Shown here: positions 2,653 through 64,000 of the stretch, piece after piece
Position numbering within the stretch: the first letter of the stretch is position 1
How the letters are laid out: each line of letters opens with the position of its first letter
NCBI GenBank assembly: GCA_964016885.1
Contig: OZ024740.1
Coordinates: 178,622,001-178,686,000, forward strand
Direction of reading: 5' to 3'
DNA: 64,000 nucleotides
Origin: Eledone cirrhosa
Taxonomy: Eukaryota
The notes under the pieces: generated by a model
Databases searched by the model: none
Told to the model about the DNA's origin: nothing
Seen by the model: only the letters and a program-made list of their open reading frames with translations
Position numbers and translations under genes: made by a program

Positions 2653-2654
2653 TA
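1..2654 (-). mobile_element. R4/Dong-type RLE non-LTR retrotransposon, family D1, copy A (5'-truncated; 3' part beyond the window edge)
   Basis: Positions 1-2022 are near-identical to 3385-5406 (offset 3384). Homologous in reverse orientation to about 58325-60905. 5' end abuts the (TAA)n tail of copy B. Confidence 0.9.
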
Positions 2655-2655
2655 C

Positions 2656-2678
2656 TATTATTATTATTATTATTATTT
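2656..2678. repeat. (TTA)n tract, tail of copy B and junction to copy A
   Basis: tattattatt... run. Confidence 0.9.
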
Positions 2679-5406: not shown

Positions 5407-5408
5407 TG

Positions 5409-5409
<1 letters not shown>

Positions 5410-5472
<63 letters not shown>
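5410..5472. repeat. (TTA)n microsatellite between head-to-head Dong and Tx1 elements
   Basis: Perfect trinucleotide run. Confidence 0.95.
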
Positions 5473-5685
5473 GAATGCCATGGTTGACGGAGGCTCGGCT
5501 CTGTAAGGTATAGTAATTTTTAACCGTTAAAACAATTGTAAATTGTTTAAAACTTGAACCAAATTGTTGATAAAGACACCCTCCTCCTCGTGAGAGGGGT
5601 CTTTCTGTCCGTTATTTGGCCCTTCGGGGTTAAATAACCAGTTATTGGGGTTTTGTACCCAAAATTTCATTTTAAACAAAAAAAC

Positions 5686-7785: not shown

Positions 7786-7820
7786 GTGGTCTTTCCCATC
7801 TTTTCCACTCTATTTTAAAC

Positions 7821-10800: not shown

Positions 10801-11240
10801 ATGGAGGTGCCGTCAGCCGGGCATGTCCGAGATGCGCGCAGGGCGACGAAACCGTCCTGCACGCACTCGTCCAGTGTCCGAAAATTGCTGACTTGTGGGT
10901 TTATGTCGAACACCTGCTGTCGCGTTTAGGACGGATCCAGCTATCATCTGAGTCTATCGTGAGGATTGCCCCGCCCTCCTCCTTTAGCCGGGAAGGGCAG
11001 GCAGTTTTTATCTGTCTGGTGGCCATGGCGAAAGAGATAGTATGGTGGACACGTTTGAAAGGGCTGAAGACGAGCACTTACCTCTTCGGTGATGCTCTGA
11101 TTGACTTTTTCAAATTTCATTTGAAAAGGAAAATCAGAGTAGAGAAGGAAGTGCTCTCTTCCCAGCATTTTGTTGAAAGATGGGTGAGAGAAGCAAGAAT
11201 GGCCCGAGTGAATGGGCCGACTCTGAGTATATATCTGTAA
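7821..11240 (+). CDS. ORF2: APE endonuclease - reverse transcriptase - C-terminal zinc finger, 1139 aa
   Basis: SINARGL, ISET, VGDWN, SYLDRVF and TDH (APE); GYWKLN, KSPGLDG, FRPITLLN, DQSKAFD, RQGCPLS and YADD (RT); CPRC..ETVLHALVQC. Confidence 0.95.
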   Translation: MTSLRIGSINARGLGSSWKQGHLLNDLRSLNIDVVAISETRISEARAFAPIFGGYDVYASPSRPGSGGGVAVLFRRGLDLAIRAIFLDPEGKLVVLDVTSGDGQAFRLVAVYAPTGAGRPDFFRRLETFLGTSRSLVLVGDWNGILDARWDCVGLADRGGGCKSLTNLLRRFELSDRYRLDFPNVPMWTWTNRIGSSRSYLDRVFCREIDRSSIGCPQFKIVSYTDHKFVICVLDLDRLHRRGPGYWKLNASLPARKAYRDRISELVKRALTGAIVNNKWWFALKRAIRIESIRFSKALAIEKNRAEGELVRKLDEALSKGIATDVLAAKLALDQFFNAKHEGCVVRARVRALRHEGTKAVQWARVAEARRGNKATIRSLVDHDGRMLLDPGQMCEAFQRHFTQLFGGSGGPGRGMDFSVYLDGLPRLSATEAKCCEKPITAAEVREAMTGCTRGKSPGLDGLPYELYVQMPDLFGGLLADVYCNWQQNGRIPSSVSRGAVALLRKDPNKGDNIDNFRPITLLNTEFKILAKVLAKRLALVVGGLVGEAQTCAIPDRSIHDNLHLMRYIVERVAREPGTGGSLINLDQSKAFDRVDHRYLAAVLRAAGFGPVFRGWIAAMHSDICSVVRVNGHLSEPFNIMRSVRQGCPLSSLLYVLTLEPLLHKLETLRGVPRELGCGRSVSAYADDVTVVVSNAKHIEAIGTTLREYEAVTGAMINQEKSVGLQLGTWRGRSMPSNSVVGRWTDGPVKLLGVWFGPDLQTDKNWDEVTSRVASLTQKWAERKLSLKGRAEVANAYIASVICYRLTVVPCPKPRLTALERLLFRFLWKGRAPMVRRSICCQHPLRGGLGMPWLMMRRHALRLRHLHLFLDGDQVWSPFARRVFPQLVSLTELQSWVKRRPRGSAWRLECLQALTALDQSGNVIGGNSTSAFYRGLVEGKSDDVLGETLGVDENQLANLFGRTFGPGPMDNFQKSLAWQCYRGALPVRDKLYRHGGAVSRACPRCAQGDETVLHALVQCPKIADLWVYVEHLLSRLGRIQLSSESIVRIAPPSSFSREGQAVFICLVAMAKEIVWWTRLKGLKTSTYLFGDALIDFFKFHLKRKIRVEKEVLSSQHFVERWVREARMARVNGPTLSIYL

Positions 11241-11501
11241 ACTAAAGGTGGAAAACTGGGAGAGGGCACTTGCCTTGGTGGTCAGGGTCATTGTGGCTTT
11301 TTACTGGGCTTTCTCCACAAATGTCCCTCCGAAGTCTCCCCCCTATTGGGGAATTTTTCATTGTTATTTTCATTGTTATTTTTGTTACATCCTCTGTTTT
11401 TGTTTTTTTTACACGCAGAAATGCCCATTTGTACCGTCCTGCATTGTCCTGCACTGTCCTTAATGTCTACTTTATGTAAACCCTTGTGGTTAATAAAGAA
11501 A

Positions 11502-11503
<2 letters not shown>

Positions 11504-11542
<39 letters not shown>
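11504..11542. repeat. (ATT)n spacer between tandem Tx1 copies
   Basis: Perfect run. Confidence 0.95.
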
Positions 11543-11755
11543 GAATGCCATGGTTGACGGAGGCTCGGCTCTGTAAGGTATAGTAATTTTTAACCGTTAA
11601 AACAATTGTAAATTGTTTAAAACTTGAACCAAATTGTTGATAAAGACACCCTCCTCCTCGTGAGAGGGGTCTTTCTGTCCGTTATTTGGCCCTTCGGGGT
11701 TAAATAACCAGTTATTGGGGTTTTGTACCCAAAATTTCATTTTAAACAAAAAAAC

Positions 11756-13861
11756 ATGGCTACCAAAAAGAAATTTCATACGTCACTCCCACTCATTCCG
11801 TCTTCTTCTTCCTCAATCATCACTACAGCAGAGAGAAGATTGTCTCTCTCCCTCCCTTCTTTAAATGTGTCTCTCTCCCTCCCTTCTCTTTCGCAAGCGA
11901 CGAAAGAAAAGAAAAGTCTCGTGCAAAGCGTGCAAGGTTTCTCCACGACGACGACGACAGCGACGAAACAGGTGTGCGGGAAATACGAAAACCCAGTTCA
12001 TTCGTCTGACGTCAGGAATAATAGCAGTAGCAGCCGTAATAACAACAGCAACAGTGACAATGAAAACAACAGTAGCAGCCGCAACAGCATCACCAGCAGC
12101 ATAAACAACAACAGCATAAACAACAACAGCATTAGCAGCAACACCAACAACAACCACAGCAACAGCGGCGGAGGCAGTAGTCGTAGTACCTGCAGCAACA
12201 AAAGTACCAGCAGCTCTGACGACAACAACAACAGCAGAGAAAAACCAATCTCATTTGCAGGTATTGCGAAAAACTTGGAAACAATCCTCATAACAAATGA
12301 GGAATTAGAGGAAGCGAAGAAGATGGTGACAAAGAACGGACACCGAGCAATCTGCAAGGCAGCGAAAAATTTTTTCGAAACCCAAGAGCACTGTACGGTC
12401 ACGTACCGTACTGTAAGTACAAAATCCCGTAGGGTGGAAAGAGCCACAGAGGCCCAAATACAAAAAGCCTTGGGGTCTGTGTGGCAGAGGAAAACGCACA
12501 TCACCCGAGGCAAAAAATACGCCACCGTAGACGTACTTTTTGCCACACCCCAGGAGGCAAAGGCCCAATCAGTAGTGACCCTAAGGAGCGAGGAAATGGT
12601 GTTGGTGCCCTCCTACTGCGGGCAAAAAATTGTGAGGGTCAAACTGACCCACGTCCCCCCCGGAATGACCCCTTCTTGGCTGGCCGCGTCTGTCCTCGTC
12701 GGAATCGAGGACAAAACAACTGTACTGCAAGTACAGAAAAAAGTAAGAGAAGATTGGGTCGGCTCCTCCATTGAGATGCTAATCCAAACCAACCAGGAGT
12801 GCATCGAAGCTATCCCGGATGTGATAGACTTCGATAACGGCACTCAACTGCCCATAAGTGTTGAGGGCAAACGCCCGAAATGCTTTCGCTGTGGATCGAA
12901 GACTCACCTCAGGGCCTTCTGCAACGAGAAGACCCTGAGAAAGGAGAAAACCCCCCTCCTTCCGAATCCGGCTCCACGGCTACCAGCAACAGGACAAGCG
13001 GCAACCAGGAACGATAGGTCCGTGGCACCCATACCCACTCCACGGAAATCAAAGACAGCAGCAGCAGTGGAAATATTAACAACAACAACAGCAATACCAA
13101 ATGCAGCTGCAACAGAGACTCCAGTGCAAACATCACCAACAACAACAAGTGAAAGAGTGGAGCTGGTACCCCTCCCCGACCTTACAGAATCAGACATGGA
13201 GTGTGAGGTGGGAGAGGGATGGCAAAAGGTCGCAAGAAGGCACAAACGCAGAAGCAGCGCATCGTCGCCTTTGAAAAGGGAGGAAAGAAATGAGAAAAGG
13301 GTAAAGTCTACTGCAAAGAGACCCACAGCAGCAACACCACCAACACCATCACCACCCACACCAGCACCACCATCACCACCGGCGACAACCCCACCGCCAA
13401 CAACACCTTCAACACCACCACCACAAGCACCAACATCGCAAACACAACAACAAAACACACACACCCAGCAACAACGACAAGAAAATAGCAGAACCACACC
13501 CCACCCCCAGAAAAACAAATGCACGGCAATAAACACACACAACAAGAAACTAATGACTTACATAATTGAACACACAGACATTTCACAACAGGACTACATA
13601 ATACCAGCACCAATCAAAACGCCAACTAACATAAGACTGCTAAAAATAGCACAGAAACAATACACAAACATTAAAACGAAATTCCCCAACGCAGTTGGTG
13701 ATTTCAGGGACCTAGGAGGAACCATTAATCGAAGAGTATATTCAGACATTCTCTTAGAAGAGCCGACGACCAGCCGAAGGGACGATTCAACGGTCCCTTC
13801 ACCAGACGATCAAGTGAAAAGGGATGTAAAAACCATCCCTCCTCTACCAAAAGTACGGTAA
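11756..13861 (+). CDS. ORF1 gag-like protein, copy 2
   Basis: As copy 1, with two extra Pro and one S>A change. Confidence 0.88.
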   Translation: MATKKKFHTSLPLIPSSSSSIITTAERRLSLSLPSLNVSLSLPSLSQATKEKKSLVQSVQGFSTTTTTATKQVCGKYENPVHSSDVRNNSSSSRNNNSNSDNENNSSSRNSITSSINNNSINNNSISSNTNNNHSNSGGGSSRSTCSNKSTSSSDDNNNSREKPISFAGIAKNLETILITNEELEEAKKMVTKNGHRAICKAAKNFFETQEHCTVTYRTVSTKSRRVERATEAQIQKALGSVWQRKTHITRGKKYATVDVLFATPQEAKAQSVVTLRSEEMVLVPSYCGQKIVRVKLTHVPPGMTPSWLAASVLVGIEDKTTVLQVQKKVREDWVGSSIEMLIQTNQECIEAIPDVIDFDNGTQLPISVEGKRPKCFRCGSKTHLRAFCNEKTLRKEKTPLLPNPAPRLPATGQAATRNDRSVAPIPTPRKSKTAAAVEILTTTTAIPNAAATETPVQTSPTTTSERVELVPLPDLTESDMECEVGEGWQKVARRHKRRSSASSPLKREERNEKRVKSTAKRPTAATPPTPSPPTPAPPSPPATTPPPTTPSTPPPQAPTSQTQQQNTHTQQQRQENSRTTPHPQKNKCTAINTHNKKLMTYIIEHTDISQQDYIIPAPIKTPTNIRLLKIAQKQYTNIKTKFPNAVGDFRDLGGTINRRVYSDILLEEPTTSRRDDSTVPSPDDQVKRDVKTIPPLPKVR

Positions 13862-13896
13862 GTGGTCTTTCCCATCTTTTCCACTCTATTTTAAAC

Positions 13897-16800
13897 ATGA
13901 CCTCACTCAGAATAGGCAGCATAAATGCGCGTGGCTTGGGGTCGTCATGGAAGCAGGGTCACCTGCTCAACGACCTCAGGTCACTAAACATAGATGTAGT
14001 GGCCATCAGCGAGACCAGAATCTCCGAAGCACGGGCCTTCGCACCGATCTTCGGCGGCTACGATGTGTACGCATCTCCCAGCCGTCCTGGATCCGGTGGA
14101 GGAGTTGCTGTACTTTTTCGGAGAGGTTTGGATCTCGCCATACGGGCCATCTTCCTGGACCCAGAGGGTAAGCTGGTGGTGCTGGACGTGACCAGCGGAG
14201 ACGGGCAAGCTTTCAGGCTAGTGGCCGTCTATGCCCCGACAGGAGCAGGGCGGCCTGATTTCTTCCGGCGTCTGGAGACCTTTCTTGGAACGTCCCGCTC
14301 TTTAGTGTTAGTGGGCGACTGGAACGGGATCTTAGATGCACGCTGGGACTGTGTGGGATTAGCGGATAGGGGTGGAGGGTGCAAGAGCCTCACCAACCTG
14401 CTCAGGCGTTTTGAACTGTCTGACAGGTACCGATTGGATTTCCCGAATGTGCCAATGTGGACTTGGACAAACCGCATAGGGTCATCCAGATCATATCTAG
14501 ATAGAGTATTTTGTAGGGAAATAGATAGGTCTAGCATAGGCTGTCCACAATTCAAGATAGTCAGCTACACGGACCACAAATTCGTGATCTGTGTGCTTGA
14601 CTTAGATAGGCTTCATAGACGAGGACCCGGCTACTGGAAGCTAAACGCGTCCTTACCAGCGCGCAAGGCCTACAGAGACCGGATTAGCGAACTAGTTAAG
14701 CGGGCGTTGACGGGGGCCATCGTCAACAACAAGTGGTGGTTTGCTCTGAAAAGAGCGATTAGAATAGAATCGATTAGGTTTAGTAAGGCTTTAGCAATAG
14801 AGAAAAATAGAGCAGAGGGAGAACTAGTTAGAAAATTAGACGAGGCGCTTAGCAAAGGCATTGCGACCGACGTGCTTGCGGCGAAATTGGCCCTTGACCA
14901 ATTCTTCAATGCAAAGCACGAAGGCTGCGTTGTCAGAGCTAGGGTGCGTGCTCTCAGACACGAGGGGACGAAAGCCGTTCAATGGGCCCGAGTGGCGGAG
15001 GCGCGTCGTGGCAACAAAGCCACGATCCGGTCTTTGGTGGACCACGACGGGCGCATGCTACTCGATCCCGGGCAAATGTGTGAAGCTTTTCAGCGACACT
15101 TCACTCAGCTGTTCGGGGGCAGCGGGGGGCCGGGTAGAGGGATGGACTTTAGTGTCTACCTCGACGGACTGCCGCGGCTCTCGGCCACTGAGGCGAAGTG
15201 TTGCGAAAAGCCGATAACAGCCGCTGAAGTACGGGAGGCAATGACTGGCTGCACAAGGGGTAAATCGCCTGGTTTGGATGGTCTGCCCTATGAACTTTAC
15301 GTACAGATGCCAGACTTGTTCGGAGGCCTCTTGGCGGACGTCTACTGCAACTGGCAACAGAACGGGAGAATTCCCAGTTCTGTGAGCCGAGGAGCGGTGG
15401 CACTGCTGAGAAAGGATCCGAACAAGGGGGATAACATAGACAATTTCCGGCCCATAACTCTGCTAAACACAGAGTTTAAGATTTTGGCCAAGGTGCTAGC
15501 AAAGAGGTTGGCGCTTGTCGTTGGTGGTCTGGTGGGAGAGGCGCAGACATGCGCCATTCCCGACAGATCCATCCACGACAACCTCCACCTCATGCGATAC
15601 ATCGTAGAGAGGGTAGCTAGGGAACCTGGCACGGGTGGGTCCTTGATCAATTTAGATCAGTCGAAAGCTTTCGATAGGGTCGACCATCGTTACCTAGCGG
15701 CAGTCCTGAGGGCGGCTGGCTTTGGGCCCGTCTTCAGAGGCTGGATCGCTGCCATGCACAGCGACATCTGCTCTGTGGTGAGAGTGAACGGTCACCTGTC
15801 GGAACCGTTCAACATCATGCGCTCGGTCCGCCAAGGATGTCCCCTCTCGTCCCTCTTGTACGTATTGACTCTCGAGCCATTACTGCACAAACTGGAGACG
15901 TTGAGGGGAGTCCCGCGCGAACTAGGATGCGGAAGATCCGTGTCAGCATATGCGGACGATGTCACCGTAGTGGTGTCGAACGCCAAACACATCGAGGCGA
16001 TCGGCACTACACTAAGAGAATACGAAGCGGTGACAGGAGCAATGATCAACCAGGAAAAGTCAGTGGGCCTGCAGCTCGGCACCTGGAGAGGCAGGTCCAT
16101 GCCGTCCAACAGCGTCGTCGGGCGCTGGACGGACGGACCGGTTAAATTGCTAGGGGTCTGGTTCGGTCCGGACCTCCAGACGGACAAAAACTGGGACGAG
16201 GTGACGAGCAGGGTGGCTTCTCTCACCCAGAAATGGGCGGAGAGGAAGCTATCCCTGAAAGGTCGAGCGGAGGTGGCTAACGCGTACATCGCGTCTGTCA
16301 TCTGCTACCGCCTAACCGTCGTACCTTGTCCTAAGCCTCGCCTGACTGCGCTGGAGCGTTTGCTCTTTCGCTTTTTGTGGAAGGGACGTGCTCCGATGGT
16401 CAGGCGGTCCATCTGTTGTCAACACCCGCTACGTGGAGGGCTGGGCATGCCGTGGCTGATGATGCGCAGGCACGCGCTCAGGCTACGACATCTCCACCTC
16501 TTCCTCGACGGTGATCAGGTGTGGTCGCCGTTTGCTAGACGCGTTTTTCCCCAGCTCGTTTCCTTGACGGAGCTGCAGTCCTGGGTCAAGCGAAGACCGA
16601 GAGGGAGCGCCTGGAGACTGGAATGTCTTCAGGCGCTCACAGCCCTCGACCAATCGGGCAATGTGATCGGTGGAAACTCCACCTCGGCGTTCTATAGAGG
16701 ATTAGTGGAGGGGAAGAGCGACGACGTACTTGGGGAAACTCTAGGCGTCGACGAAAATCAACTAGCCAATCTCTTCGGAAGAACTTTCGGGCCAGGGCCT

Positions 16801-17316
16801 ATGGACAACTTCCAGAAATCTCTGGCCTGGCAGTGCTACCGAGGAGCCTTGCCAGTTCGGGATAAACTCTACAGGCATGGAGGTGCCGTCAGCCGGGCAT
16901 GTCCGAGATGCGCGCAGGGCGACGAAACCGTCCTGCACGCACTCGTCCAGTGTCCGAAAATTGCTGACTTGTGGGTTTATGTCGAACACCTGCTGTCGCG
17001 TTTAGGACGGATCCGGCTATCATCTGAGTCCATCGTGAGGATTGCCCCGCCCTCCTCCTTTAGCCGGGAAGGGCAGGCAGTTTTTATCTGCCTGGTGGCC
17101 ATGGCGAAAGAGATAGTATGGTGGACACGTTTGAAAGGGCTGAAGACGAGCACTTACCTCTTCGGTGATGCTCTGATTGACTTTTTCAAATTTCATTTGA
17201 AAAGGAAAATCAGAGTAGAGAGGGAAGTGCTCTCTTCCCAGCATTTTGTTGAAAGATGGGTGAGAGAAGCAAGAATGGCCCGAGTGAATGGGCCTACTCT
17301 GAGTATATATCTGTAA
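13897..17316 (+). CDS. ORF2 APE-RT-ZnF, copy 2, 1139 aa
   Basis: As copy 1, with Q>R and K>R changes near the C-terminus. Confidence 0.95.
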   Translation: MTSLRIGSINARGLGSSWKQGHLLNDLRSLNIDVVAISETRISEARAFAPIFGGYDVYASPSRPGSGGGVAVLFRRGLDLAIRAIFLDPEGKLVVLDVTSGDGQAFRLVAVYAPTGAGRPDFFRRLETFLGTSRSLVLVGDWNGILDARWDCVGLADRGGGCKSLTNLLRRFELSDRYRLDFPNVPMWTWTNRIGSSRSYLDRVFCREIDRSSIGCPQFKIVSYTDHKFVICVLDLDRLHRRGPGYWKLNASLPARKAYRDRISELVKRALTGAIVNNKWWFALKRAIRIESIRFSKALAIEKNRAEGELVRKLDEALSKGIATDVLAAKLALDQFFNAKHEGCVVRARVRALRHEGTKAVQWARVAEARRGNKATIRSLVDHDGRMLLDPGQMCEAFQRHFTQLFGGSGGPGRGMDFSVYLDGLPRLSATEAKCCEKPITAAEVREAMTGCTRGKSPGLDGLPYELYVQMPDLFGGLLADVYCNWQQNGRIPSSVSRGAVALLRKDPNKGDNIDNFRPITLLNTEFKILAKVLAKRLALVVGGLVGEAQTCAIPDRSIHDNLHLMRYIVERVAREPGTGGSLINLDQSKAFDRVDHRYLAAVLRAAGFGPVFRGWIAAMHSDICSVVRVNGHLSEPFNIMRSVRQGCPLSSLLYVLTLEPLLHKLETLRGVPRELGCGRSVSAYADDVTVVVSNAKHIEAIGTTLREYEAVTGAMINQEKSVGLQLGTWRGRSMPSNSVVGRWTDGPVKLLGVWFGPDLQTDKNWDEVTSRVASLTQKWAERKLSLKGRAEVANAYIASVICYRLTVVPCPKPRLTALERLLFRFLWKGRAPMVRRSICCQHPLRGGLGMPWLMMRRHALRLRHLHLFLDGDQVWSPFARRVFPQLVSLTELQSWVKRRPRGSAWRLECLQALTALDQSGNVIGGNSTSAFYRGLVEGKSDDVLGETLGVDENQLANLFGRTFGPGPMDNFQKSLAWQCYRGALPVRDKLYRHGGAVSRACPRCAQGDETVLHALVQCPKIADLWVYVEHLLSRLGRIRLSSESIVRIAPPSSFSREGQAVFICLVAMAKEIVWWTRLKGLKTSTYLFGDALIDFFKFHLKRKIRVEREVLSSQHFVERWVREARMARVNGPTLSIYL

Positions 17317-17576
17317 ATTAAAGGTGGAAAACTGGGAGAGGGCACTTGCCTTGGTGGTCAGGGTCATTGTGGCTTTTTACTGGACTTTCTCCACAAATGT
17401 CCCTCCGAAGTCTCCCCCCTATTGGGGAATTTTTCATTGTTATTTTCATTGTTATTTTTGTTACATCCTCTATTTTTGTTTTTTTACACGCAGAAATGCC
17501 CATTTGTACCGTCCTGCATTGTCCTGCACTGTCCTTAATGTCTACTTTATGTAAACCCTTGTGGTTAATAAAGAAA

Positions 17577-17578
<2 letters not shown>

Positions 17579-17662
<84 letters not shown>
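17579..17662. repeat. (ATT)n tract
   Basis: Perfect run. Confidence 0.95.
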
Positions 17663-17665
<3 letters not shown>

Positions 17666-17819
17666 CAGTATCGGTAGAGCGTCAGACTCCAAGCATTGAA
17701 GCATAGAATTACGGCCCTTTATGATCTGAGTTCAAATGCTGCCGAGGTTAACTTTATCTTTCATCCTTACGGGGTCGATAAAATAAAGTACCAGTAATGC
17801 ACTGGTGTAATTGCTGGCC

Positions 17820-17822
<3 letters not shown>
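17663..17822 (+). mobile_element. tRNA-derived SINE family S1, truncated copy between (ATT)n tracts
   Basis: A-box-like TATCGGTAGAGCG, B-box-like GAGTTCAAAT, central TTTCATCCTTACGGGGTCGATAAAATAAAGTACCAG (resembles the MetaSINE-type domain). Three more copies in the window. Confidence 0.8.
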
Positions 17823-17884
<62 letters not shown>

Positions 17885-17885
<1 letters not shown>

Positions 17886-18117
17886 TCTCCCTGGGTGCCC
17901 TAGAAGCGCAGAGTGGTTCAGGATTGGTGGGGTACCCGAGTCACCCCAGGGGAATTTATTTTGTTATATTTATGCATAGTTTATTTTATATTTTTATATT
18001 TTAATTGTTAAATTAGTCTTGCCATTGTGCACTTTTACTCAACCTTATTGTAAACCCCCACTGTCCCTGTCTTTGTATTGTCCCCTACTTGTCGGCCCTT
18101 GTGGCTAATAAATGAAA

Positions 18118-18119
<2 letters not shown>
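17885..18119 (+). mobile_element. 3' UTR-only fragment of a Tx1 element related to family T3
   Basis: GTTCAGGATTGGTGGGGTAC and CCCTTGTGGCTAATAAATGAAATC match the reverse complement of 61666-61910. Flanked by (ATT)n. Confidence 0.8.
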
Positions 18120-18158
<39 letters not shown>

Positions 18159-18160
<2 letters not shown>

Positions 18161-18374
18161 AGGGCGGTGTATCAGTAGAGCGTCGGACAACATGCCTTAT
18201 GGCATTGAACTACGGCCCTTTGCGTTATGAGTTCAAATCCGGCTGTGGTTAACTTTGCCTTTCATCCTTACCGGGTCGATAAAATCAAGTACCAGTCAGG
18301 CACTGGGGTCGATTTAATCGACTTTCCCCTCCCCCCCAAAAAAAATTGCTGGCCTTGTGCCTATATAAGAAATC
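18159..18374 (+). mobile_element. SINE S1 copy
   Basis: AAAGGGCGGTG head, GAGTTCAAATCC, central domain, tail GGCCTTGTGCCTATATAAGAAATC + ATT. Confidence 0.82.
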
Positions 18375-18383
18375 ATTATCATT

Positions 18384-18599
18384 AAAGGGCGGTGTATTGT
18401 CTGTATCGGTAGAGCGTCGGACATGCATTATGGCATATAGTTACATCCCTTTACGCTCTGAGTTCAAATTCCGCCGAAGTTAGCTTTGACTTTCTTTCTT
18501 AAGGGTTCTATAAAATAAAGTACCAGTCACGCGCTGAGGTCGATTTTATCGACTTTCCTGTCCCGCAAAATTACTGGCTATGTGTCTAAACCAGAGACC
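18384..18599 (+). mobile_element. SINE S1 copy (tandem, more diverged)
   Basis: Homologous to 18159-18374; ends in ATTATT. Confidence 0.78.
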
Positions 18600-42830: not shown

Positions 42831-43010
42831 TTGTTTCTACTTTAGGCACAAGGCCAGCAATTATCCAGTGCATTACTGGTACTTTATTTTATCGACCCCG
42901 TAAGGATGAAAGGCAAAGTCAACCTCGGCGGGATTTGAACTCAGATCGTAAAGGGACGTAACTATGCTGGAAAGCATGGCGTCCGACCCTCTACCGATAC
43001 TGCCTATCCA
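42831..43010 (-). mobile_element. SINE S1 copy between (TAA)n tracts
   Basis: Reverse complement of the 17663/18159 SINE. Confidence 0.82.
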
Positions 43011-46470: not shown

Positions 46471-46495
46471 TAATAACAATAATAATAATAATAAT

Positions 46496-49400
46496 GATTT
46501 CTTTATTGGCGACAAGGCCTGACATCATGAAAAACATCACAGACGGAACAGAACGGTACGATGTGGGTTTTGTGCGTGTAAATATTTTTATTATTTATAT
46601 AAGAAAAGAAAAAAGACATAAAACATATATATATATAAACAATAAAATGAAAATTGAAACAATGAAAATTCCCCAATAGGGCGAAAACCACACAAAATAC
46701 CACGGCCACCCTGGCAACCAGGGCAAGAGCCCTCTCTCAATTTTTCCATCTCTCAAACTACAGACGTATATTCAGAGTGGTCCCGTTCACTCGGACCATT
46801 ATCGCTACATTCACCCACCTTTCAACAAACTTGCTAGAAGGCAGCACTTGCTTCTCCACCCTGATTTTCCTCTTCAAGTGAAACTTGAAAAAGTTAATTA
46901 GGGATTCGCCGAAGAAGAAAGTGTTTGTCTTTAATCCTTTTAACCTTGTCCACCACACAATCTCTTTCACCATGGCCACCAGGCAGATGAAAACCGCCTG
47001 CCCTTCCTCCTCAAAGGAAGACGGCGAGACCATCTGCACAATGGACTCAGTCAACAACCGGTCAGTCCCACACGTGACAGCAACTGTTCGACATAGCTCC
47101 ACAAGTCAGCAATGCTCGGGCACTGAACGAGTGCGTGCACAACGGTTTCATCGCTATGCGCGCATCTCGGATAGGCTCGGCTGAAGGCACTTCCGTGCCT
47201 GTAGATCTTATCGCGAACCGGCAGCGCTCCCCGGTAGCACTGCCAGGCCAGGTATTTTTAGAAGTTATCCATAGTCCCCGGGCTGAAAGTTCTCCGAAAG
47301 AGAGCAAACAGCTGATCTTCTTCGACGCCCAGGATCTCTCCGAGAATGTCGTCGCTCTTCCCCTCCACTAGTCCTCTATAGAACGCCGAGGTGGATGTTC
47401 CACCGATACTGGTTCCCAACTGGGAGAGGGCAGTGAGCGCCTGGAGACATTCCAGTTTCCAAGAGCTATCCCTCGGTCTTTTTCTCACCCAGGACTGCAG
47501 CTCCGTCAAGGAGACGAGCTGTGGCAAAATGTGCCTGGCGAACGGCGACCACACTCGTTCACCATCAAGGAAGCACCAGAGATGTCGCAGCCTCAGCGCA
47601 TGTTTGCGCATCATCAGCCATGGCATGCCCAGTCCTCCACGCAACGGGTGTTGACAGCAGATGGATCGTCTGACCATGGGAGCGCGTCCCTTCCACAAAA
47701 AGCGGAAGAGGAGGCGCTCCATTTTGGTGAGAGTTGGGCTGGAGCAAGGGACGATGGTGAAGCGGTAGCAGATGACGGATGCGATGTACGCATTCGCCAC
47801 TTCCGCCCGGCCTTTCAGGGACAGCTTCCTCTCAGCCCATTTCTGGGTGAGGGAGGCCAACCTGCTCGTCACCTCGTTCCAGTTTTTCTCCATCTGGAGG
47901 TCCTGTCCGAACCAGACCCCGAGCAATTTAACCGGTCCGTCTGTCCATCGCCCCACGACGCTGTCGGACGGCATGGACTTGCCTCTCCAGGTGCCTAGCT
48001 GCAAGCCCACCGACTTTTCCTGGTTTATCTTTGCTCCTGTCACCGCTTCGTATTCCTTGAGAGCGGTGCCGAGCATCTGGACGTGTCTGGTGCTCGGCAC
48101 CACCACGGTGACGTCGTCAGCGTAAGCCGACTCGGATTTCCCACATCCTAGTTCGCGTGGGACACCCCTCATCGCCCCCAGTTTGTGCAGTAACGGCTCG
48201 AGAGCCAATACGTACAAGTGGGTCGAGAGGGGACAACCCTGGCGGACTGAGCGCATGATGCTGAACGGCTGCGACAGGTGACCGTTCACCCTCACAACTG
48301 AGCAGATGTCGCTGTACATTGCTGCGACCCAACGCCTGAAAACGGGCCCGAAACCGGCTGCCTCGAGGACCGCCGCCAGGTACCGATGGTCGACCCTATC
48401 GAATGCTTTGGATTGATCCAAGTTGATCAGGGCTCCACCCTTGCCAGGTTCGTTAACCACCCTCTCTATGATGTATCGCATGAGGTGGAGGTTGTCGTGT
48501 ATGGATTTGTCCGGAATGGCGCATGTCTGCGCCTCTCCTACCAGACCCTTGACGACAAGCGCCAACCTCGTTGCTAACACCTTCGCCAAAATCTTGAACT
48601 CTGTGTTTAGCAGGGTTATGGGCCTGAAATTATCAATAACATCCCCCTTGTTCGGGTCTTTTCTCAGCAGCACCACTGCTCCCCGGCTCACAAAACTGGG
48701 AATGCTCCCGTTCTGCTGCTAGTTGCAGTAGACGTCTGCCAAGAGGTCACCGAACAAGTCTGGCATAAATGCATAAAGCTCGTAGGGCAGACCATCTAAT
48801 CCTGGCGATTTACCTCTTGTGCAGTTAGCCATCGCTTCCCGTATTTCACCGGCTGTTATTGGCTTTTCGCAACACTGTGTTGCGGTCGTCGAGAGCCGAG
48901 GCAGTCCGTCGAGGTATGCACTGAAGTCCATGCCCCGATCCGGGCCGCCGCCGCTCCCAATCAGTTCAGCAAAGTGCTGCTGAAAAGCTTCACACATCCA
49001 CTCGGGTTCGAGCATCACACCCGTTTTGGTCAGACAAAGACCGAATTGTGGCTTTATTGCCACGTCGCGCCTCTGCCACCCGAGCCCATTGGACGGCTTT
49101 TGTCCCCTCGTGTTTCAGAGCACGCGCTCTAGCTCTGACAACGCAGCCTTCGTGTTTTGCGTTGAAGAATTGGTCGAGTGCCAATCTCGCCGCAAGCACG
49201 TCGGTTGCGATGCCTGTCCTAAGCGCCTCTTCTAGCTTTCTGACTAGCTCTCCCTCTACTCTATTTTCCTCTATCACTACTCCTTTGCTAAACTTAATCG
49301 ACTCTACTTTAATTGCCCTTATCAGGGCGAATCACCACCTGTTGTTGACGACCGCTCCCGTCAACGCCTGCTTAACTAATACGCTAATCCGGTCTCTGTA

Positions 49401-52031
49401 GGCCTTGCGCGCCGGGAAAGACGCGTTCAGCTTCCACTAACCAGGCTCTTGTCTATGAAGTCTGTCTATGTCGATCTCACAGATCACAAATTTGTGGTCT
49501 GTGTAGTCGACTATTTTAAATTGTGGACAACTTATACTAGCCTTATCTAGTTTCCTGCAGAATACCCTATCGAGATACGATCTGGATGACTCGATGCGGT
49601 TTGTCCATGTCCACATTGGCACATTCAGGTGATCCAGTCGATACCTGTCAGACAGTTCAAAATGTCTGAGCAGGTTGGTGAGGCTCTTGCACCCTCCTCC
49701 CCTATCCACTAGCCCCACACGATCTCAGCGTGCATCCAAGATACCGTTCCAGTCGCCCACTAACACTAAAGAGCGGGACGTCTGAAGAAATCTGGCCGTC
49801 ATGCCCCTGTTGGGGCGTAGACGGCTACTAGCCTGAAAGGATTGCCTTCGCTGCCGGTCACGTCCAGCACCACCGACTTACCTTCTGGGTCCAGGAAGAT
49901 GGCCCGTATCGCGAGATCCAAGCCTCTCCGAAAAAGGACGGCAACGCCTCCCCCCGATCCTGGACGGCTGGGAGATGTTGGTGGGATGTAGTAGTTTTTT
50001 TCCGTGATGTCTGTGTGCTGCTTTATATATTTTATGAGTTCTTTTTTTGCTATGTTTATGGCTGTGTACTTTTTGGGGGGAGGGGTGATTTTGTTGCCGT
50101 TTTCTTCTTCTTGCTGTTTGGTGTGTGTCTTGTTGTGTTTGCGTTGTTGGTGTTTGTGGTGGTGTTGCTGCAAGTTTCCTTGCTGCCTTTACCCCTCTTT
50201 GTATGCCTTCGCTTTTGGAGGGTGAATCTAAGGTTTTTTTTTGTTTTTTGTTTTTTGTGGCAGACTGTTTGCCACGTCACTCCCGCCTCAAACTCCATGT
50301 CGGATTCTGTGGCGTCTGGGAGGGGTATGTGCTCCACGGCTGTTGGTGGTGGTAGTGGAGCCCTCTTCGGCAATTTTGTTGCAGTTGTAGCTATTTCAAA
50401 TGTAGCTATTGGTGTTCCCGCTACTGATGATGCTGCTTTAGTTATCCGTGGCCTTGGTACGGGTGCTACGGACGTTGCCCTCCTACTCACCGTGGAAGGG
50501 GCTTCTTCGTTTGTTGCCTGTCCTGCTCTTGGTAGCAGCGGACCAGGTATTGGAAGGAGAGTGGCCCTCTTCGGTGTCTTCTGCGGGCAAAAGGCCCTGA
50601 GGTGACCTTTCGACCCACAGAGATAACATTTTGGCCGTCTTCCTTCTACACTTATAGGGAGTTGGAGTCCTTCCTCGAAGTCTATGATATCTGGGATAGC
50701 CTCGATACATTCCTGGTCAGTTTGTATAAGCATTTGCATGCCTATACCTTACCAGTTCTCTCTCCCTATTTTTTCTACTTGCAGCATGGTCGCCCTATTC
50801 TCAATTCCAGCAAGGACAGACGCGGCCAGCCAAGGTATGGGCACGTCGGGTGGGACCTGGGTCACTTTGACCCTCACAATTTTCTGCCCTCAGCAGGAGG
50901 GCACCAAGACTAACTCCTCACTCTTTAGGGTTTCCAAAGAGTGAGACTTTGCTTCCTGGGGTTGGAGAAAAGTACGTCTACTGTGGCGTACTTTCTGCCA
51001 CGGGTGATGTGGGTTTTGCGTGCCCAGTCGCACCCCAAGGCCTTTTGGATTTGAGCCTCCGTGGCTCTCTCCACTCGAATTGAGATTTTGCTTACGGCGC
51101 GGTAAGTCACCGTCCGTAGCTGCTGGTCCTTGAAAAAATCGGGTGGAGGTTTCAGGGAAACTCTATTTCCGCTTCTTGTCACCGTGGCCCTTGCGACTGC
51201 CATCTCCTCCTCTGTGACTAACACTGTCTCGATATTTCGGGCGACACCTGCAAAAGAAGTGGTCCCTTTTTCAGCAGCACCACTATTGCTGTCGCTACTG
51301 GTCTTACTGGTGGTGCTGAGGTCGCTATTACAGGTATCGGTGTCATTGTTGTTCTTTTCGCTGGTACAGTTGTTGGTGTTGTTTTCGTTGATACTGTTGC
51401 TGCTGTTACTGTTATTGTGGCTGTTGTTATTATTGTTGTTTTTGTTGATACTGTTCCTACTATTATTGTTGTTGTGGCTGTTGTTATTGTCATTGTTATT
51501 GTCGTTCTCGACTTTACCGCTGTTACTTTTGTTATTGTCGTTCTCAACTTTACCGCTGTTATTTTTGTTATTGTCGTTCTCGACTTTACCGCTGTTATTT
51601 TTGGTGTTGTTGTTGGTGATGTTGTTGGTGTTATTGTTGGTGTTGTTTGTGTTAGAAATATATGGTAATTTTAAATCTGTAGCAATCTTTTTTTCCTTTG
51701 TAAATTTTTCGTTTCTATTTACCTCCGCTGGAACGCTGTCTTGTTGACATGCTGATAAGGTCTCCCTCTCTCTGTGTTGTCTGACAGCGCTCTCTCTCTT
51801 TTTTGTGTTATCCATGTTGAAATTTTCCAAAAAAATATTTTTACACAAATACGAATATGACACCCCGTAAAGGGGTGCCGTATTATTTACTAGTGAATAC
51901 CTGTATTAGGTGGGTCACTTATTTTATCAAATTCTTTTATCAAATTTAAAACTTGAATAAAAGGTTTAGAACGGTTGAAAAAGAGGTAAAACGTTGAAAA
52001 AGACTGGAGGCGATAAGAAGCGTGGTTCACC
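46496..52031 (-). mobile_element. Tx1/L1-clade element family T2, near full-length, degenerate
   Basis: ORF1 pieces (50925..51863, 50056..50739 with CYLCGSKGHLRAFC) and ORF2 pieces homologous to T1. Internal deletion at about 49977 removes the ORF1/ORF2 boundary. (TAA)n on both sides. Confidence 0.9.
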
Positions 52032-52037
52032 AACAAC

Positions 52038-52094
<57 letters not shown>
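52032..52094. repeat. (AAC/AAT)n tract between head-to-head T2 and D2
   Basis: Direct reading. Confidence 0.93.
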
Positions 52095-52095
<1 letters not shown>

Positions 52096-55890: not shown

Positions 55891-56970
55891 GATTTCTTTA
55901 TTGGCCACAAGGGCTGACATCAAGAAAAACATTACAGACGGCACAGGACGGTACAGGACGGTACGATGTGGGTTTTGTCCGTGTAAATATTTTTATTATT
56001 TATATAATAAAAAAAAAATAGAAACATATATATAAACAATAAAAATGAAAATTGAAACAATGAAAAATTCCCCAATAGGGGGGAAACCTCCGAGGGTTAC
56101 TCGTGGCGAAAACCACACAAAAGACCACGGCCACCCTGACCACCAGGGCAAGCGCCCTCTCTCAATTTTTCCATTTCTGAAACTATTCAGAGTGGTCCCG
56201 TTCACTCGGACCATTATCGCTACATTCACTCACCTTTCAACAAACTTGCTAGAAGGCAGCACTTGCTTCTCCACCCTGATTTTCCTCTTCAAGTGAAACT
56301 TGAAAAAGTTAATTAGGGATTCGCCGAAGAGGAAAGTGTTTGTCTTTAATCCTTTTAACCTTGTCCACCACACAATCTCTTTCACCATGGCCACCAGGCA
56401 GATGAAAACCGCCTGCCCTTCCTCCTCAAAGGAATACGGCGAGACCATCTGCACAATGGACTCAGTCAACAACCGGTCAGTCCCACACGTGACAGCAACT
56501 GTTCGACATAGCTCCACAAGTCAGCAATGCTCGGGCACTGAACGAGTGCGTGCACAACGGTTTCATCGCTATGCGCGCATCTCGGATAGGCTCGGCTGAA
56601 GGCACTTCCGTGCCTGTAGATCTTATCTCGAACCGACAGCGCTCCCCGGTAGCACTGCCAGGCCAGAGATTTTGGAAGTTATCCCTAAGCCCTGGGATGA
56701 AATTTCTCCGGAAGAGAGCAAACAGTTGATCTTCGACGCCCAGGATCTCTCCGAGAACGTCGTCCCTCTTCCCCTCCATTAGTCTTCTATTGAACGCCGA
56801 GGTGGATGTTCCACCGATACTGGTGCCGAACTGGGAGAGGGCAGTGAGCGCCTGGAGACATTCCAGTTTCCAAGCGCTTTCAAATGGTCTTTTTCTCTTT
56901 TTTTGACTCAGGACTGCAGCTCCGTCAAAGAGACGAGCTGTGGGAAAACGTGCCTGGCGAACGGCGACCA
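55891..56970 (-). mobile_element. 3' fragment of Tx1 family T2
   Basis: Matches 46496-47550. Confidence 0.88.
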
Positions 56971-57324
56971 TACCTCTATTATTATGAAAAGAAAATGGTT
57001 ATAAATGGAAGAAAACCCCTCTGTCTACACTATATAGAACAGCCAAATAAAGCAATTTAACAAACACCACAAACTAGATACACCACCTATCCCATCACCC
57101 CTCTGTGTACACTAAATACAAAAGCCAGATAACGGCATTTTCACCACCACCACCACCACCAATCCCAGCATAATAATATTAATTGTATCTCAAGTTTTCT
57201 CAAAATGTTTAATTCAAATATTAAAGAAATATGTCAACACATATATTAAACATACGCGACAAACCGCATAGATACACAGATCAAACAAACTACAGTCTAT
57301 TCAATAAAACTCAGTAACGACAAC

Positions 57325-61665: not shown

Positions 61666-61667
<2 letters not shown>

Positions 61668-64000
61668 TTTCATTTATTGGCCACAAGCGCCGACATATAG
61701 GGGACAATACAAAAGACTGGGACAGTGAGGTTTTACAGAAAAATTGAGTAAACAATATGAATAAACAAAGTAACAATAACAAAGTAACAGTAAAGTAACA
61801 ATAAAATTACAACAAGAAAAAAATTCCCCATAGGGGGGATGACCACCTAGGGTTCGCTCAAGTACCCCACCAGTCCTGAACGACCCGACGCTTCGAGAGC
61901 ACTCTGGAAGGGCACCCCTCTCCTCTTCAAATTTACCTACCTACAGCCGCATGACCAGAGTAGACCCACTCACACGGGCCATTCTCGCCACATTCACCCA
62001 CCTTTCAGCAAATGTACTGGGGGGCAGCACTTCTCTCTCCACCCTCACCTTCCTTTCCAAGTGAAACTTGAAAAAGTTCATGAGGGATTGGCCGAAGAGA
62101 AAAGTGTCTGTCTTCAGTCCTTTCTACCTCGTCCACCATACAACCTCTTTCGCTACTGCCACCAGACAGAGGAAAATTGCCTGACCTTCCTGGCCAAAAG
62201 AAGGCGGTGGGTCGATCTTCACTATGGACTCGGCCGATAGCCGGATCCGTTCTACACGCGACAACAGCTCTTCAACATAACTCCACAAGTCAGTAATGCA
62301 CGGACACTGGACGAGTGCGTGCAGAACGGTTTCGTCGCTCTGCGCGCATCTCGGGCAGGTCCGTCTGACAGCACTTCCGTGCCTGTAGAGATTATCTCGA
62401 ACCGGCAGTGTCCCCCGGTAGCACTGCCAAGCGAGGGATTTTTGGAAATTATCCATCGTCCCCGGCTCGAAAGTCCTCCGGTACAGACTGGTTAGTTCGA
62501 CTTCGTTGACTCCCAGAGCCTCTCCGAGTGCGTCGTCGCACTTGCCCATCACTAATCCTCTATAGAACTCGAGAGTGGAAGTTCCACTGACCGCATTGCC
62601 CGCCTGGTAGAGGGCAGTAGTGCCTGGCAACATTCCAGATGCCAGTCACCCAGTCTCGGTCTCTTCTTGACCCAGGACTGCAACTCAGTCAAAGAAACGA
62701 GCTGCGGAAAGGCCCGTCTGACAAACGGCGACCACACCTATTCACCGATTAGGCAGAATATCTGGAGATGCCGCAGCCTCAGCGCGTGCCTGCGCATCAT
62801 TAGCCACGGCATGCCCAGCCCACCACGTAGAGGTTGCTGGCAGCAGATGGACCGCCTCACCAGCGGAACCTGACCCCTCCACAAGAATTTGAAGAGGAGC
62901 CGCTCCAAGATGGCGAGGCGCGAACGTGGGCAAGGGACGACAGTCAGACGGTAGTAGATGACGGACGCGATGTACGTGTTCGCCACCTCCGCCCGACCTT
63001 TCAGTGACAGCTTCATCCCAGCCCATTTCTGGGTGAGACTGACTACCCTGCCCGTCACCTCGTCCCAATTCTTATCCACCTGTAGGTCTGGCCCGAACCA
63101 AACCCCTAGCAACTTTACCGGTCCGTCCGTCCAGCGCCTAACGACGCTGCTGGACGGCATGGACTTGCCTCTCCAGGTGCCGAGTTGCAAGCCTACTGAC
63201 TTTTCCGGGTTAAGTTTTGCTCCCGTCAACCATTCATATTCCTTCAATAAGTTGCCGACCACCTCGATTTCTGAGGTGTCCGACACCATCACGGTGATGT
63301 CGTCCGCATAAGCCGACACAGCCTTTCCGCGTCCCGATTCGAGTGGGATGCCCTGCAACAGCTCCAGCTTCCGCAGTAAAGGCTCGAGAGTCAATACGTA
63401 CAGAAGGGAGGAGAGAGGGCACCCTTGACGGACCGATCGGGAGACCTGAAACGGTTCCGAGAGGTGGCCATTAATTTTGACCATCGAGCAGGTGCCGCTG
63501 TGCATTGCAGCGATCCAGCTTCTGAAGACGGGACCGAAGCCAGCCGCCTTGAGGACAGCCTCCAGGTACCGATGGTCGACCCTATCGAATGCTTTCGATT
63601 GATCTAAATTGATCAGAGCCCCACCGAAGCGAGGTTTACACCCTACCCTCTCTATGATGTATCGCATTAGGTGGAGGTTGTCATGTATGGACCTGGTTGG
63701 GATTGCGCAAGTTGCGCCTCCCCAACCAAATCCCCGACGACAAGCGCCAACCTCTTCGCTAACACCTTGGCCAAAATCTTAAACTCTGTTTTGAGCAGAG
63801 TTATGGGCCTGAAATTGTCTAATGTGTCCCTCTTATTCTCGTCTTTCCTTATCAGCGTCACTAAGCCACGGCTCACAGAACTGGGAATACTCCCGTTTTG
63901 CTGCCAGTTGCAGTAGAGGGCTTCGAGGAGATTGGAGAACAAGTCTGACATATTTAGGGCAGACCATCCAAACCGGGTGACTTGCGCCTCATGCAGCCTA
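61666..64000 (-). mobile_element. Tx1/L1-clade element family T3, 3' part, degenerate
   Basis: ORF2 RT fragments (63667..63951, 62738..63667 with YADD, 62124..62633 with CPRC..HALVQC); 3' end CTTGTGGCCAATAAATGAAATC(ATT)n. Confidence 0.9.

What the first reader, a model, noticed from the sequence alone, without database searches (positions are those of the whole stretch)
17663..18599. SINE with a Tx1-like 3' end that follows the Tx1 target rule: candidate microsatellite-targeted SINE/Tx1 pair
The S1 tail GGCCTTGTGCCTATATAAGAAATC-ATT (and GGCCTTGTGCCTAAAGTAGAAAC-AATTATT at 42831, minus strand) resembles the Tx1 ends CCCTTGTGGTTAATAAAGAAATC-ATT (T1), GCCCTTGTGGCCAATAAAGAAATC (T2) and GGCCCTTGTGGCTAATAAATGAAATC-ATT (T3-like). 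All four SINE copies sit in ATT tracts in the Tx1 orientation. Known: many SINEs borrow their partner LINE's 3' end, but L1-clade partners mostly act through poly(A). Inference: a ~25-nt motif (CCTTGTG..YAA..GAAATC) is the recognition signal for this Tx1 RT, and the SINE inherits its target specificity.
Basis: partly seen in the sequence, partly recalled or inferred. Interest (0 to 1): 0.75.

Follow-up and report, generated by a model that had tools for sequence, protein, structure and literature searches.

The report
SINE borrows Tx1 tail and target
A short jumping repeat with over 200,000 copies in this likely octopod genome ends like a family of long Tx1-type jumping genes and sits at a short ATTAT landing site with a duplicated flank, so it likely borrows their copying enzyme, which is predicted to pick it by a small RNA hairpin.

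Summary
The quoted ends are exact. S1 is a tRNA-type SINE with 207,084 exact tail matches genome-wide. Its last 32 nt match five Tx1-type ends and none of ten other LINE families scored. The shared signal is a 3-4-bp hairpin with a CUUGU loop, a 6-7-nt spacer and GAAAY. Its stem covaries but folds weakly. Targeting is real but short: 59 of 64 target-site duplications (10-20 bp) start ATTAT, and the base before is a pyrimidine in 56 of 57. At most 8.6% of tails precede (ATT)4, about what the motif alone predicts. So 'microsatellite-targeted' fits the young Tx1 (20 of 20 full-length copies) but not the SINE. Sister Tx1 families have a similar hairpin but (ATCT)n targets, and that junction follows 1 SINE tail genome-wide, so a second filter is likely. 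Older T2/T3 families fit better than T1. Recognition itself is untested. The scan noted this pairing before on other DNA of this genome. Verdict: a new variant of a known kind; nearest are SINEU/Tx1-Mar and plant stringent L1 pairs.

The parts
11543..17578 (+). T1, full-length Tx1-type LINE (6,036 bp), second of two tandem copies (first 5473-11503, 99.7% identical)
11756..13861 (+). T1 ORF1, 701 aa, one CX2CX4HX4C knuckle, no Pfam hit
13897..17316 (+). T1 ORF2, 1,139 aa, open: APE endonuclease + RT + zf-RVT; nearest solved structure human L1 ORF2p
17554..17578 (+). T1 3' signal: 4-bp stem with CTTGT loop, AATAAA, GAAATC
17579..17662 (+). (ATT)28 array after T1
17666..17822 (+). S1 copy a, short subfamily; lacks a few 5' bases and breaks off inside the hairpin loop (no full motif)
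17823..17884 (+). (ATT)20 array
17885..18119 (+). 5'-truncated T3-type Tx1 3' UTR (235 bp), ATT on both sides; hairpin + AATAAA + GAAATC at 18094-18119
18120..18161 (+). (ATT)13 array; its last 12 nt are the upstream copy of the target-site duplication of S1 copy b
18162..18374 (+). S1 copy b, long subfamily, with tRNA-type head and intact tail (hairpin from 18351, GAAATC 18369-18374)
18375..18386 (+). 12-nt downstream target-site duplication of copy b (one mismatch to 18150-18161); also the 5' flank of copy c
   Evidence: read from the sequence
18387..18599 (+). S1 copy c, long subfamily, more diverged (77% to a full-length copy), decayed hairpin, 3 ATT units after it
42832..43010 (-). S1 copy d, short subfamily, intact tail, 6 ATT units upstream and 5 downstream
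55891..56975 (-). 5'-truncated T2-type Tx1 with the same 3' signal
46496..52037 (-). Long, broken T2-type Tx1; 3' end at 46496 followed by ATT; 5' limit approximate
61666..64000 (-). T3-type Tx1, 3' part (runs off the window), followed by an ATT array

Best explanation
S1 is a tRNA-type SINE whose last ~30 bases match the 3' ends of this genome's Tx1-type LINEs and whose copies sit at Y|ATTAT sites between 10-20-bp duplications; it is likely copied by the ORF2 protein of the ATT-type Tx1 families, which is predicted to bind the shared hairpin + GAAAY end. Shown: the tail match, the covarying stem, the target motif, the duplication, the copy numbers. Inferred steps: (1) Pol III transcribes S1 from its A and B boxes and runs on into the copy's own downstream ATTAT. 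(2) Tx1 ORF2p binds the CUUGU hairpin placed 12-13 nt before the element end; the AATAAA between them is not needed by a Pol III transcript and has drifted in S1. (3) The endonuclease nicks the bottom strand at 5'-(A)ATAAT^R-3'. (4) The freed end pairs with the AUUAU right behind GAAAY and primes reverse transcription, so no tail is added. (5) A second nick 10-20 nt away (mode 16-17) gives the duplication. T2/T3-type families, rather than the young T1, likely made most copies.
For: Tail: S1 ends score 21-36 against 5 Tx1-type ends (0-169 of 30,000 background 32-mers reach these) and -2 to 16 against 10 other LINE families (at least 1,250 of 30,000). Structure: in a 10-row alignment 85% of stem cells pair (shuffles 69.4+/-4.7, 0 of 500; slid controls at most 65%); one pair is C-G in all 7 Tx1 rows and G-C/G-U in all 3 S1 rows; T1 has A-U where the rest have G-C. 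Among 168 of 190 body-anchored S1 tails, hairpin columns keep the majority base in 92-99% and AGAAA in 94-98%, while the five subfamily-variable columns (51-72%) all lie outside them. Target: 166,530 of 207,084 tails are followed by ATTAT. Duplications were found in 64 of 149 copies (shuffled pairs 0-5); 59 of 64 start ATTAT; only 3 of the other 85 have a later-starting repeat (shuffles 0-1), so ATTAT belongs to the target and is not an added tail. The base before the site is C 30, T 26, A 1 of 57 against 64% pyrimidine background (p=2e-10); this position lies outside any RNA-primer pairing, which points to the endonuclease. Tx1 uses the same register: 95 of 124 Tx1 ends are followed by ATTAT; 20 of 20 full-length T1 have at least 6 ATT upstream; three truncated Tx1 copies at non-array sites have 8-, 13- and 16-nt duplications starting ATTA (L154, L177; L249, read by eye). 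Age ranges overlap for T2/T3: S1 pairwise 89.5%, T2 93%, T3 81% with nearest neighbours 97%.
Against: The S1 stem is only 3-4 bp; folding z-scores are +0.21 and +0.86 for S1 and -0.65 and -0.84 for Tx1, so none beats shuffles. The covariation set is 10 hand-picked, related rows and the structure was read from them. Tx1 ends sit in long arrays far more often than S1 (67 of 124 before (ATT)4, against at most 8.6%); I have no tested reason. Only 19 of 43 Tx1 5' junctions have ATTATT within 40 nt (many of these boundaries are unreliable). 85 of 149 S1 copies show no duplication at my threshold. Sister Tx1 families score about as well against the short S1 tail (27 against 27-28). A T4 terminator lies within 12 nt of the end in only 23 of 149 copies. 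No biochemical or RNA evidence.
Confidence: 0.62

Rival explanations
1. Tx1 is the partner, but the hairpin is a relic of the template switch that gave S1 its tail; ORF2p takes any RNA that ends in AUUAU and can pair with the nicked target (relaxed recognition, ATT in place of poly(A)).
For: Weak folding. L1-clade proteins in mammals and most plants are relaxed (PMC3472496, passages). Sister Tx1 families carry a like hairpin, in single copies even the same loop, yet the ATCT-type junction follows only 1 S1 tail genome-wide, which shows that the hairpin does not suffice.
Against: A compensatory C-G to G-C swap separates S1 from Tx1. S1 subfamilies vary in the spacer but not in the hairpin or AGAAA. 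The hairpin-to-end distance is kept within 1 nt.
Confidence: 0.22
2. An unsampled or extinct LINE family (for example L2, Hero or another CR1) with a like tail and target made S1.
For: My survey is partial: ten non-Tx1 ends scored, one more seen by eye, and at least four endonuclease hits (L375, L376, L382, L390) without a 3' end seen. L2 is listed among coleoid LINEs (PMC8967140, passages) and I found no L2 to test.
Against: The S1-type hairpin followed by AATAAA occurs 8 times genome-wide and all 8 are S1 bodies. Of 156 tails sampled, 149 align to the S1 body; of the 7 dropped, 6 are partial S1 copies or tail-only pieces and 1 is a chance match.
Confidence: 0.08
3. The abundant CR1-type family that also ends in (ATT)n (2,741 exact 3' ends) mobilises S1.
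For: It has an (ATT)n tail and a terminal stem-loop; CR1 is a usual SINE partner in molluscs (PMC4824008, passages).
Against: Its end scores 6-15 against S1, within background. It adds an ATT run of 0-29 nt, and none of 23 copies with a visible 5' junction shows an ATTAT-starting duplication (30 loci examined; several boundaries uncertain). S1 adds no tail and has duplications.
Confidence: 0.05
4. The R2-like (Dong/R4-type, name recalled) elements that share these arrays carry S1.
For: They insert in the same arrays in this window; best PDB hits are R2 proteins.
Against: They lie in the opposite sense (AAT), and their two end types score 3-16 against S1.
Confidence: 0.02

Closest known systems
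SINEU with Tx1-Mar, crocodilians (Kojima 2015, PMC4494074; passages read)
   Same: A SINE assigned to Tx1 machinery because it shares the Tx1 family's target preference; tandem copies around a duplication.
   Different: SINEU has a U1/U2 head and a poly(A) tail, and the paper found no LINE sharing the SINEU-1 3' end; its target is a Mariner element. S1 has a tRNA-type head, shares a 3' hairpin end with Tx1, adds no tail and targets a 5-6-nt motif.
Stringent L1-clade pairs: maize LINE1-1_ZM with maize/sorghum SINEs, Chlamydomonas L1-1_CR with SINEX-3_CR (Ohshima 2012, PMC3472496; Ohshima 2013, PMC3747384; passages read)
   Same: L1-clade LINE and SINE share a 3' end with a hairpin of conserved loop, variable covarying stem and a conserved motif 3' of the stem.
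   Different: Green plants and algae; the algal pair is stated to end in poly(A); no sequence-specific target reported in the passages read. Here an animal, the Tx1 branch and a defined target.
Microsatellite-targeting Tx1 families Kibi (TC)n, Koshi (TTC)n and crocodilian (TTCC)n/(TTTC)n families (as described in PMC4494074)
   Same: APE-RT Tx1-type LINEs inserting in a simple repeat in a fixed sense; target switches within the group.
   Different: Targets here are (ATT)n, (ATCT)n and (AACT)n; no SINE partner is named for Kibi/Koshi in the passages read.
Octopus SINEs OR1, OR2, OK (Ohshima and Okada 1994; seen only as citations in PMC4824008 and PMC4758252; the name OK is recalled)
   Same: Abundant tRNA-derived SINEs of octopods.
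   Different: I could not see their sequences, so S1 may well be one of them or a relative; their partner LINE was not named in what I read.

Membership tests
tRNA-derived SINE | [quoted passage not shown] | tested here: met
   A-box-like 12-mer in 68 of 84 and B box in 67 of 84 full-length copies (box consensus recalled)
tRNA-derived SINE | Head alignable to a named tRNA | tested here: inconclusive
   No ARAGORN gene in the window; no Rfam tRNA match on the window stretch or two full-length loci; first and last bases of the head pair like an acceptor stem
tRNA-derived SINE | Short, non-coding, high copy, 5'-truncated copies, target-site duplications | tested here: met
   about 187 and 217 bp; 207,084 tails; 65 of 149 truncated; 64 of 149 with duplications
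L1 clade (L1 + Tx1) | Two ORFs; ORF2 = APE + RT + C-terminal zinc domain, nearest to L1 ORF2p | tested here: met
   Pfam Exo_endo_phos, RVT_1, zf-RVT; PDB best hit L1 ORF2p E 2.8e-52 against R2 1.3e-21
Tx1 group | RT groups with named Tx1 references (Tx1L, Keno, Kibi) apart from L1 | tested here: inconclusive
No named Tx1 reference was available. The RT forms a clade with an Argonauta hians protein (73%); fish and turtle proteins at 37-41% form a neighbouring clade.
Tx1 group | Sequence-specific insertion | tested here: met
   20 of 20 full-length T1 have at least 6 ATT upstream and ATT downstream; sister families precede (ATCT)n or (AACT)n
Stringent SINE/LINE pair | Shared 3'-terminal sequence, specific to that LINE group | tested here: met
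   (5 Tx1-type against 10 other ends); survey of LINE families incomplete
Stringent SINE/LINE pair | Conserved stem-loop with compensatory changes | tested here: met
   stability not above shuffles
Stringent SINE/LINE pair | 3' end required for retrotransposition and bound by ORF2p | not testable with these tools
   needs a trans-mobilisation or binding assay
Stringent SINE/LINE pair | Concurrent activity of SINE and LINE | tested here: inconclusive
   Identity ranges overlap for T2/T3 (small samples of 17 and 23 ends) but T1 (about 99.3%) is younger than most S1 (93.6% to majority, n=68)
   6 of 64 duplication-proven sites have (ATT)4; 17,817 tails precede (ATT)4, 10.7% of ATTAT-followed tails, against 5.0% of Y|ATTAT and 13.6% of Y|ATTATT sites in random DNA
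MetaSINE / V / CORE / Deu superfamilies | Shared central domain | tested here: inconclusive
   Compared by eye only with bivalve consensus sequences in parts 1 and 3 of 4 of the PMC4824008 supplement: no Meta, Deu or V likeness, a faint likeness to the 3' part of BivaCORE-SINE2; no alignment run

The most novel reading that the evidence does not exclude
An animal L1-clade enzyme uses stringent RNA recognition with two keys: the octopod Tx1 ORF2p picks its template by a CUUGU hairpin + GAAAY, and priming also needs an AUUAU end that the tailless SINE takes from its own target-site duplication by read-through. The landing motif thus hands itself on from copy to copy, locks S1 to the ATT-type families among sister Tx1s with the same hairpin, and drove one of the largest SINE bursts of this genome.
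Probability: 0.4. Interest if true: 0.68.

Novelty: new variant of a known kind. Interest (0 to 1): 0.52.

Why it matters
SINEs make up about 11.6% of the Octopus vulgaris assembly and 893 of 900 recently active SINE families there are unclassified (PMC13282606, passages); a partner for a 200,000-copy family would explain much of that burst and where it lands. Animal L1-clade enzymes are known as relaxed, poly(A)-reading; a tail-sharing Tx1 pair would extend the stringent mode proposed as ancestral from plants and algae (PMC3472496) to animals. An open T1 ORF2, a 25-nt signal and a 5-6-nt target make the question directly testable, and sister families with the same hairpin but other targets are built-in controls. 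It is an addition within known retrotransposon biology, not a new kind of system.

Tried and rejected
Rfam on the finding and on two full-length S1 loci: nothing above gathering scores. ARAGORN: no tRNA. Sequencing-run search with the T1 3' part: no RNA holder listed; no reads laid. Protein searches for a named Tx1 reference: none named Tx1. Whole-family RT search returned one CR1-type family in all 30 loci, so other families were reached by separate queries. Search for a LINE carrying the exact S1 hairpin plus AATAAA: 8 hits, all S1. Automatic 5'-junction calling for old Tx1 copies was unreliable: 16 of 59 abut other Tx1 sequence and many short ones belong to families without a reference, so Tx1 duplication lengths rest on three cases. 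Order of insertion between adjacent S1 and Tx1 copies cannot be read from adjacency, since a new copy can land at the upstream duplicate of an old one; I did not use it for dating. Literature searches that found no description of an octopod SINE-Tx1 tail pair; they do not cover Repbase, Dfam, SINEBase entries or subscription papers such as Ohshima and Okada 1994 and Kojima and Fujiwara 2004. One locus meant to show a further LINE end (L406) did not reach it.

Full report
Setting. The window lies on the largest contig of a 3.0-Gb animal assembly. The closest named relative of the window's main RT is an Argonauta hians protein (73% over the RT region), so the genome is likely an octopod. The window is a pile of retroelements around ATT arrays: two tandem full-length copies of an APE-RT LINE (T1, 5473-11503 and 11543-17578), broken relatives (T2, T3), R2-like elements on the opposite sense, and four SINE copies.

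Observation. Four S1 copies exist in the window, all in the ATT sense. Copy a (17666-17822) breaks off inside the loop; copy c (18387-18599) is decayed with short ATT flanks; copies b and d have the intact tail. Copy b is flanked by a 12-nt duplication with one mismatch.

What S1 is. It has two lengths, about 187 and 217 bp, begins with a tRNA-type head (A-box-like motif in 68 of 84 and B box in 67 of 84 full-length copies) and is non-coding. No tRNA model matched it. An exact tail pattern has 207,084 hits, its reversed control 0. Sixty-eight full-length short copies are 93.6% identical to their majority (75-99%) and 89.5% pairwise.

The tail. End-anchored alignment of the last 32 nt of three S1 copies scored 21-36 against five Tx1-type ends; 0-169 of 30,000 random genomic 32-mers (S1 and Tx1 tails removed) reach those scores. 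Ten other families (four CR1-type, two RTE-type, two R2-like, two RNase-H-bearing; clade names recalled from architecture) scored -2 to 16, reached by at least 1,250 of 30,000. A fifth CR1-type end was seen by eye and lacks the motif; at least four endonuclease hits were left without a 3' end. T2 and T3 score above T1 for all three S1 ends. The shared element is a hairpin with a 5-nt loop, then 6-7 nt, then GAAAY. Tx1 families differ in the stem: AACC/GGTT in 23 distinct contexts, AGCC/GGCC in 17, GGCC/GGCY in 26, while S1 has GGC/GCC (that scan required pairing). In ten hand-picked rows 85% of stem cells pair against 69.4+/-4.7 in shuffles (0 of 500) and at most 65% when slid; the second pair is C-G in all seven Tx1 rows and G-C or G-U in all three S1 rows. 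The rows are related, so this is not a probability. In 168 of 190 S1 tails anchored on the body and on bases before the hairpin (22 dropped for indels, truncation or decay), the hairpin and AGAAA columns keep their base in 92-99%, and the five columns that differ between subfamilies lie in the spacer or at the last base. Against this, no end folds better than shuffles (z -0.84 to +0.86). The S1 hairpin with AATAAA behind it occurs 8 times genome-wide, always in an S1 body, so no LINE with that exact end turned up.

The target. ATTAT follows 166,530 of 207,084 tails. I sampled 156 tails from 40 evenly spaced 10-kb stretches, 30 loci and 20 stretches at the first pattern hits of one contig, and 60 CR1 loci; 7 were dropped for low alignment score. 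Of 149, 64 have a duplication (48 of 84 full-length, 16 of 65 truncated; shuffled pairs 0-5). Lengths are 10-20 bp in 63 of 64, mode 16-17. Fifty-nine start ATTAT and 45 ATTATT. Only 3 of the other 85 have a repeat starting later (shuffles 0-1), so ATTAT is target, not added tail. After setting aside 7 copies that follow another element's end, the base before the site is C 30, T 26, A 1, against 64% pyrimidine before genomic ATTAT (p=2e-10). Since 53 of these 57 elements end in A themselves, RNA pairing cannot explain that base; the endonuclease likely does (inference).

Not a microsatellite-targeted SINE. Six of 64 proven sites contain (ATT)4 and 7 of 149 copies have it upstream. Genome-wide 17,817 tails precede (ATT)4 (pattern two letters shorter), at most 8.6% of tails and 10.7% of ATTAT-followed ones. 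In random DNA 5.0% of Y|ATTAT sites (71 of 1,407) and 13.6% of 522 Y|ATTATT sites do so. S1 therefore follows the short motif; this window's arrays are just dense targets.

Tx1 side. Of 20 T1 loci fetched as best hits, 18 held a full-length copy; with the window's two, 20 of 20 have at least 6 ATT upstream (median 9) and ATT downstream (median 14; paired p=0.024); several are in tandem with another Tx1. Of 124 distinct Tx1 ends, 95 precede ATTAT and 67 (ATT)4. Of 43 usable 5' junctions 19 have ATTATT within 40 nt; many are old and ill-defined. Three truncated copies at non-array sites show S1-like duplications of 8, 13 and 16 nt. The register is thus the same, but Tx1 favours long arrays much more than S1; this gap is unexplained. 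One reading is that Tx1 mRNA is cut after AAUAAA inside the array, ends in (AUU)n and pairs best with long arrays (inference).

Sister families. Tx1 copies before (ATCT)n and (AACT)n have a like hairpin, mostly with loops CTGGT, CTAGT or CCTGT, and single copies with CTTGT. In an RT tree they nest inside the octopod clade as sister to T3 (95/98, 36 rows, midpoint root). They are not rare: four such ends lay in the 400-kb random sample. Yet their junction follows just 1 S1 tail genome-wide. So the hairpin marks the lineage, and something else ties S1 to the ATT type; pairing of the nicked target with the AUUAU read from the copy's own duplication is the simplest candidate (inference).

Rivals. 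A young CR1-type family with an (ATT)n tail (2,741 exact ends) adds a variable tail, and none of 23 visible 5' junctions shows an ATTAT-starting duplication. R2-like elements face the other way. An unseen LINE remains possible. The strongest rival keeps Tx1 as partner but treats the hairpin as a relic.

Known kinds. SINEU of crocodilians shares a target with Tx1-Mar but has poly(A), and no LINE sharing the SINEU-1 end was found (PMC4494074, passages). Tail-sharing L1-clade pairs are described from maize and Chlamydomonas (PMC3472496 and PMC3747384, passages). Mollusc SINE papers name CR1, L2 or Nimb partners, or none, in the passages read (PMC4824008 passages, section 9 and supplement parts 1 and 3 of 4; PMC4758252 and PMC11481361 passages). 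Octopus repeat surveys list L1-Tx1 and abundant SINEs without pairing them in the passages read (PMC13282606, PMC8967140); their supplements were not read and may name S1. PMC3531059 gave only a citation. Nine searches found no such pair in print, but Repbase and the 1994 octopus SINE paper were out of reach, so S1 itself may be a named family. Eight earlier notes of this scan report the same pairing on other DNA of this genome; they were read after my tests and are not evidence.

Verdict. The pairing is well supported by sequence (about 0.84 for a Tx1 partner, 0.62 with hairpin recognition). The 'microsatellite-targeted SINE' label and T1 as the main driver are not. New variant of a known kind; interest 0.52.

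Noticed in passing
window 18084-18236: Weak Rfam match to U2 snRNA (20.6 bits, gathering 46, E 0.12): the T3-type 3' hairpin and flanks resemble U2 stem-loop I. Likely chance, but Keno-type Tx1 elements target U2 genes.
   Followed up: no
window 1-5410 (-), 43495-46477, 52094-55210, 58330-61618 (+): Two families of R2-like single-ORF elements (Dong/R4 type, name recalled) fill the same ATT arrays in the opposite sense, often tail to tail with Tx1; two unrelated clades compete for one microsatellite.
   Followed up: partly
L044, L046, L059, L014, L304, L337: Sister Tx1 families followed by (ATCT)n, (AACT)n or (CT)n: target switches within one octopod radiation, nested beside T3 in the RT tree.
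   Followed up: partly
window 5473-17578; L104, L108, L110: T1 forms head-to-tail tandem arrays; in L104 and L110 the same imperfect 39-42-nt ATT spacer recurs between units, which may mean duplication by recombination or long target duplications.
   Followed up: no
L144, L183, L207, L217: S1 copies inserted independently at one ATTATTCT site in the 3' UTR of the young CR1-type family, a hotspot that also shows S1 was active after those CR1 copies landed.
   Followed up: partly
L350-L361, L404-L407: Two CR1-type families end in short own repeats followed in most copies by long (TA)n tracts; a possible (TA)n preference or tract generation.
   Followed up: no
L013 (-) first 95 nt of the S1 head: The head folds as one long hairpin (-38.6 kcal/mol) rather than a cloverleaf; no shuffle control run.
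   Followed up: no
L209 near 1324: A tail-only S1 insertion of about 26 nt (hairpin to GAAAY) between apparent duplications; L177 is a 32-nt Tx1 equivalent.
   Followed up: no
L400: An RNase-H-bearing LINE followed by a long (CAA)n-rich tract.
   Followed up: no
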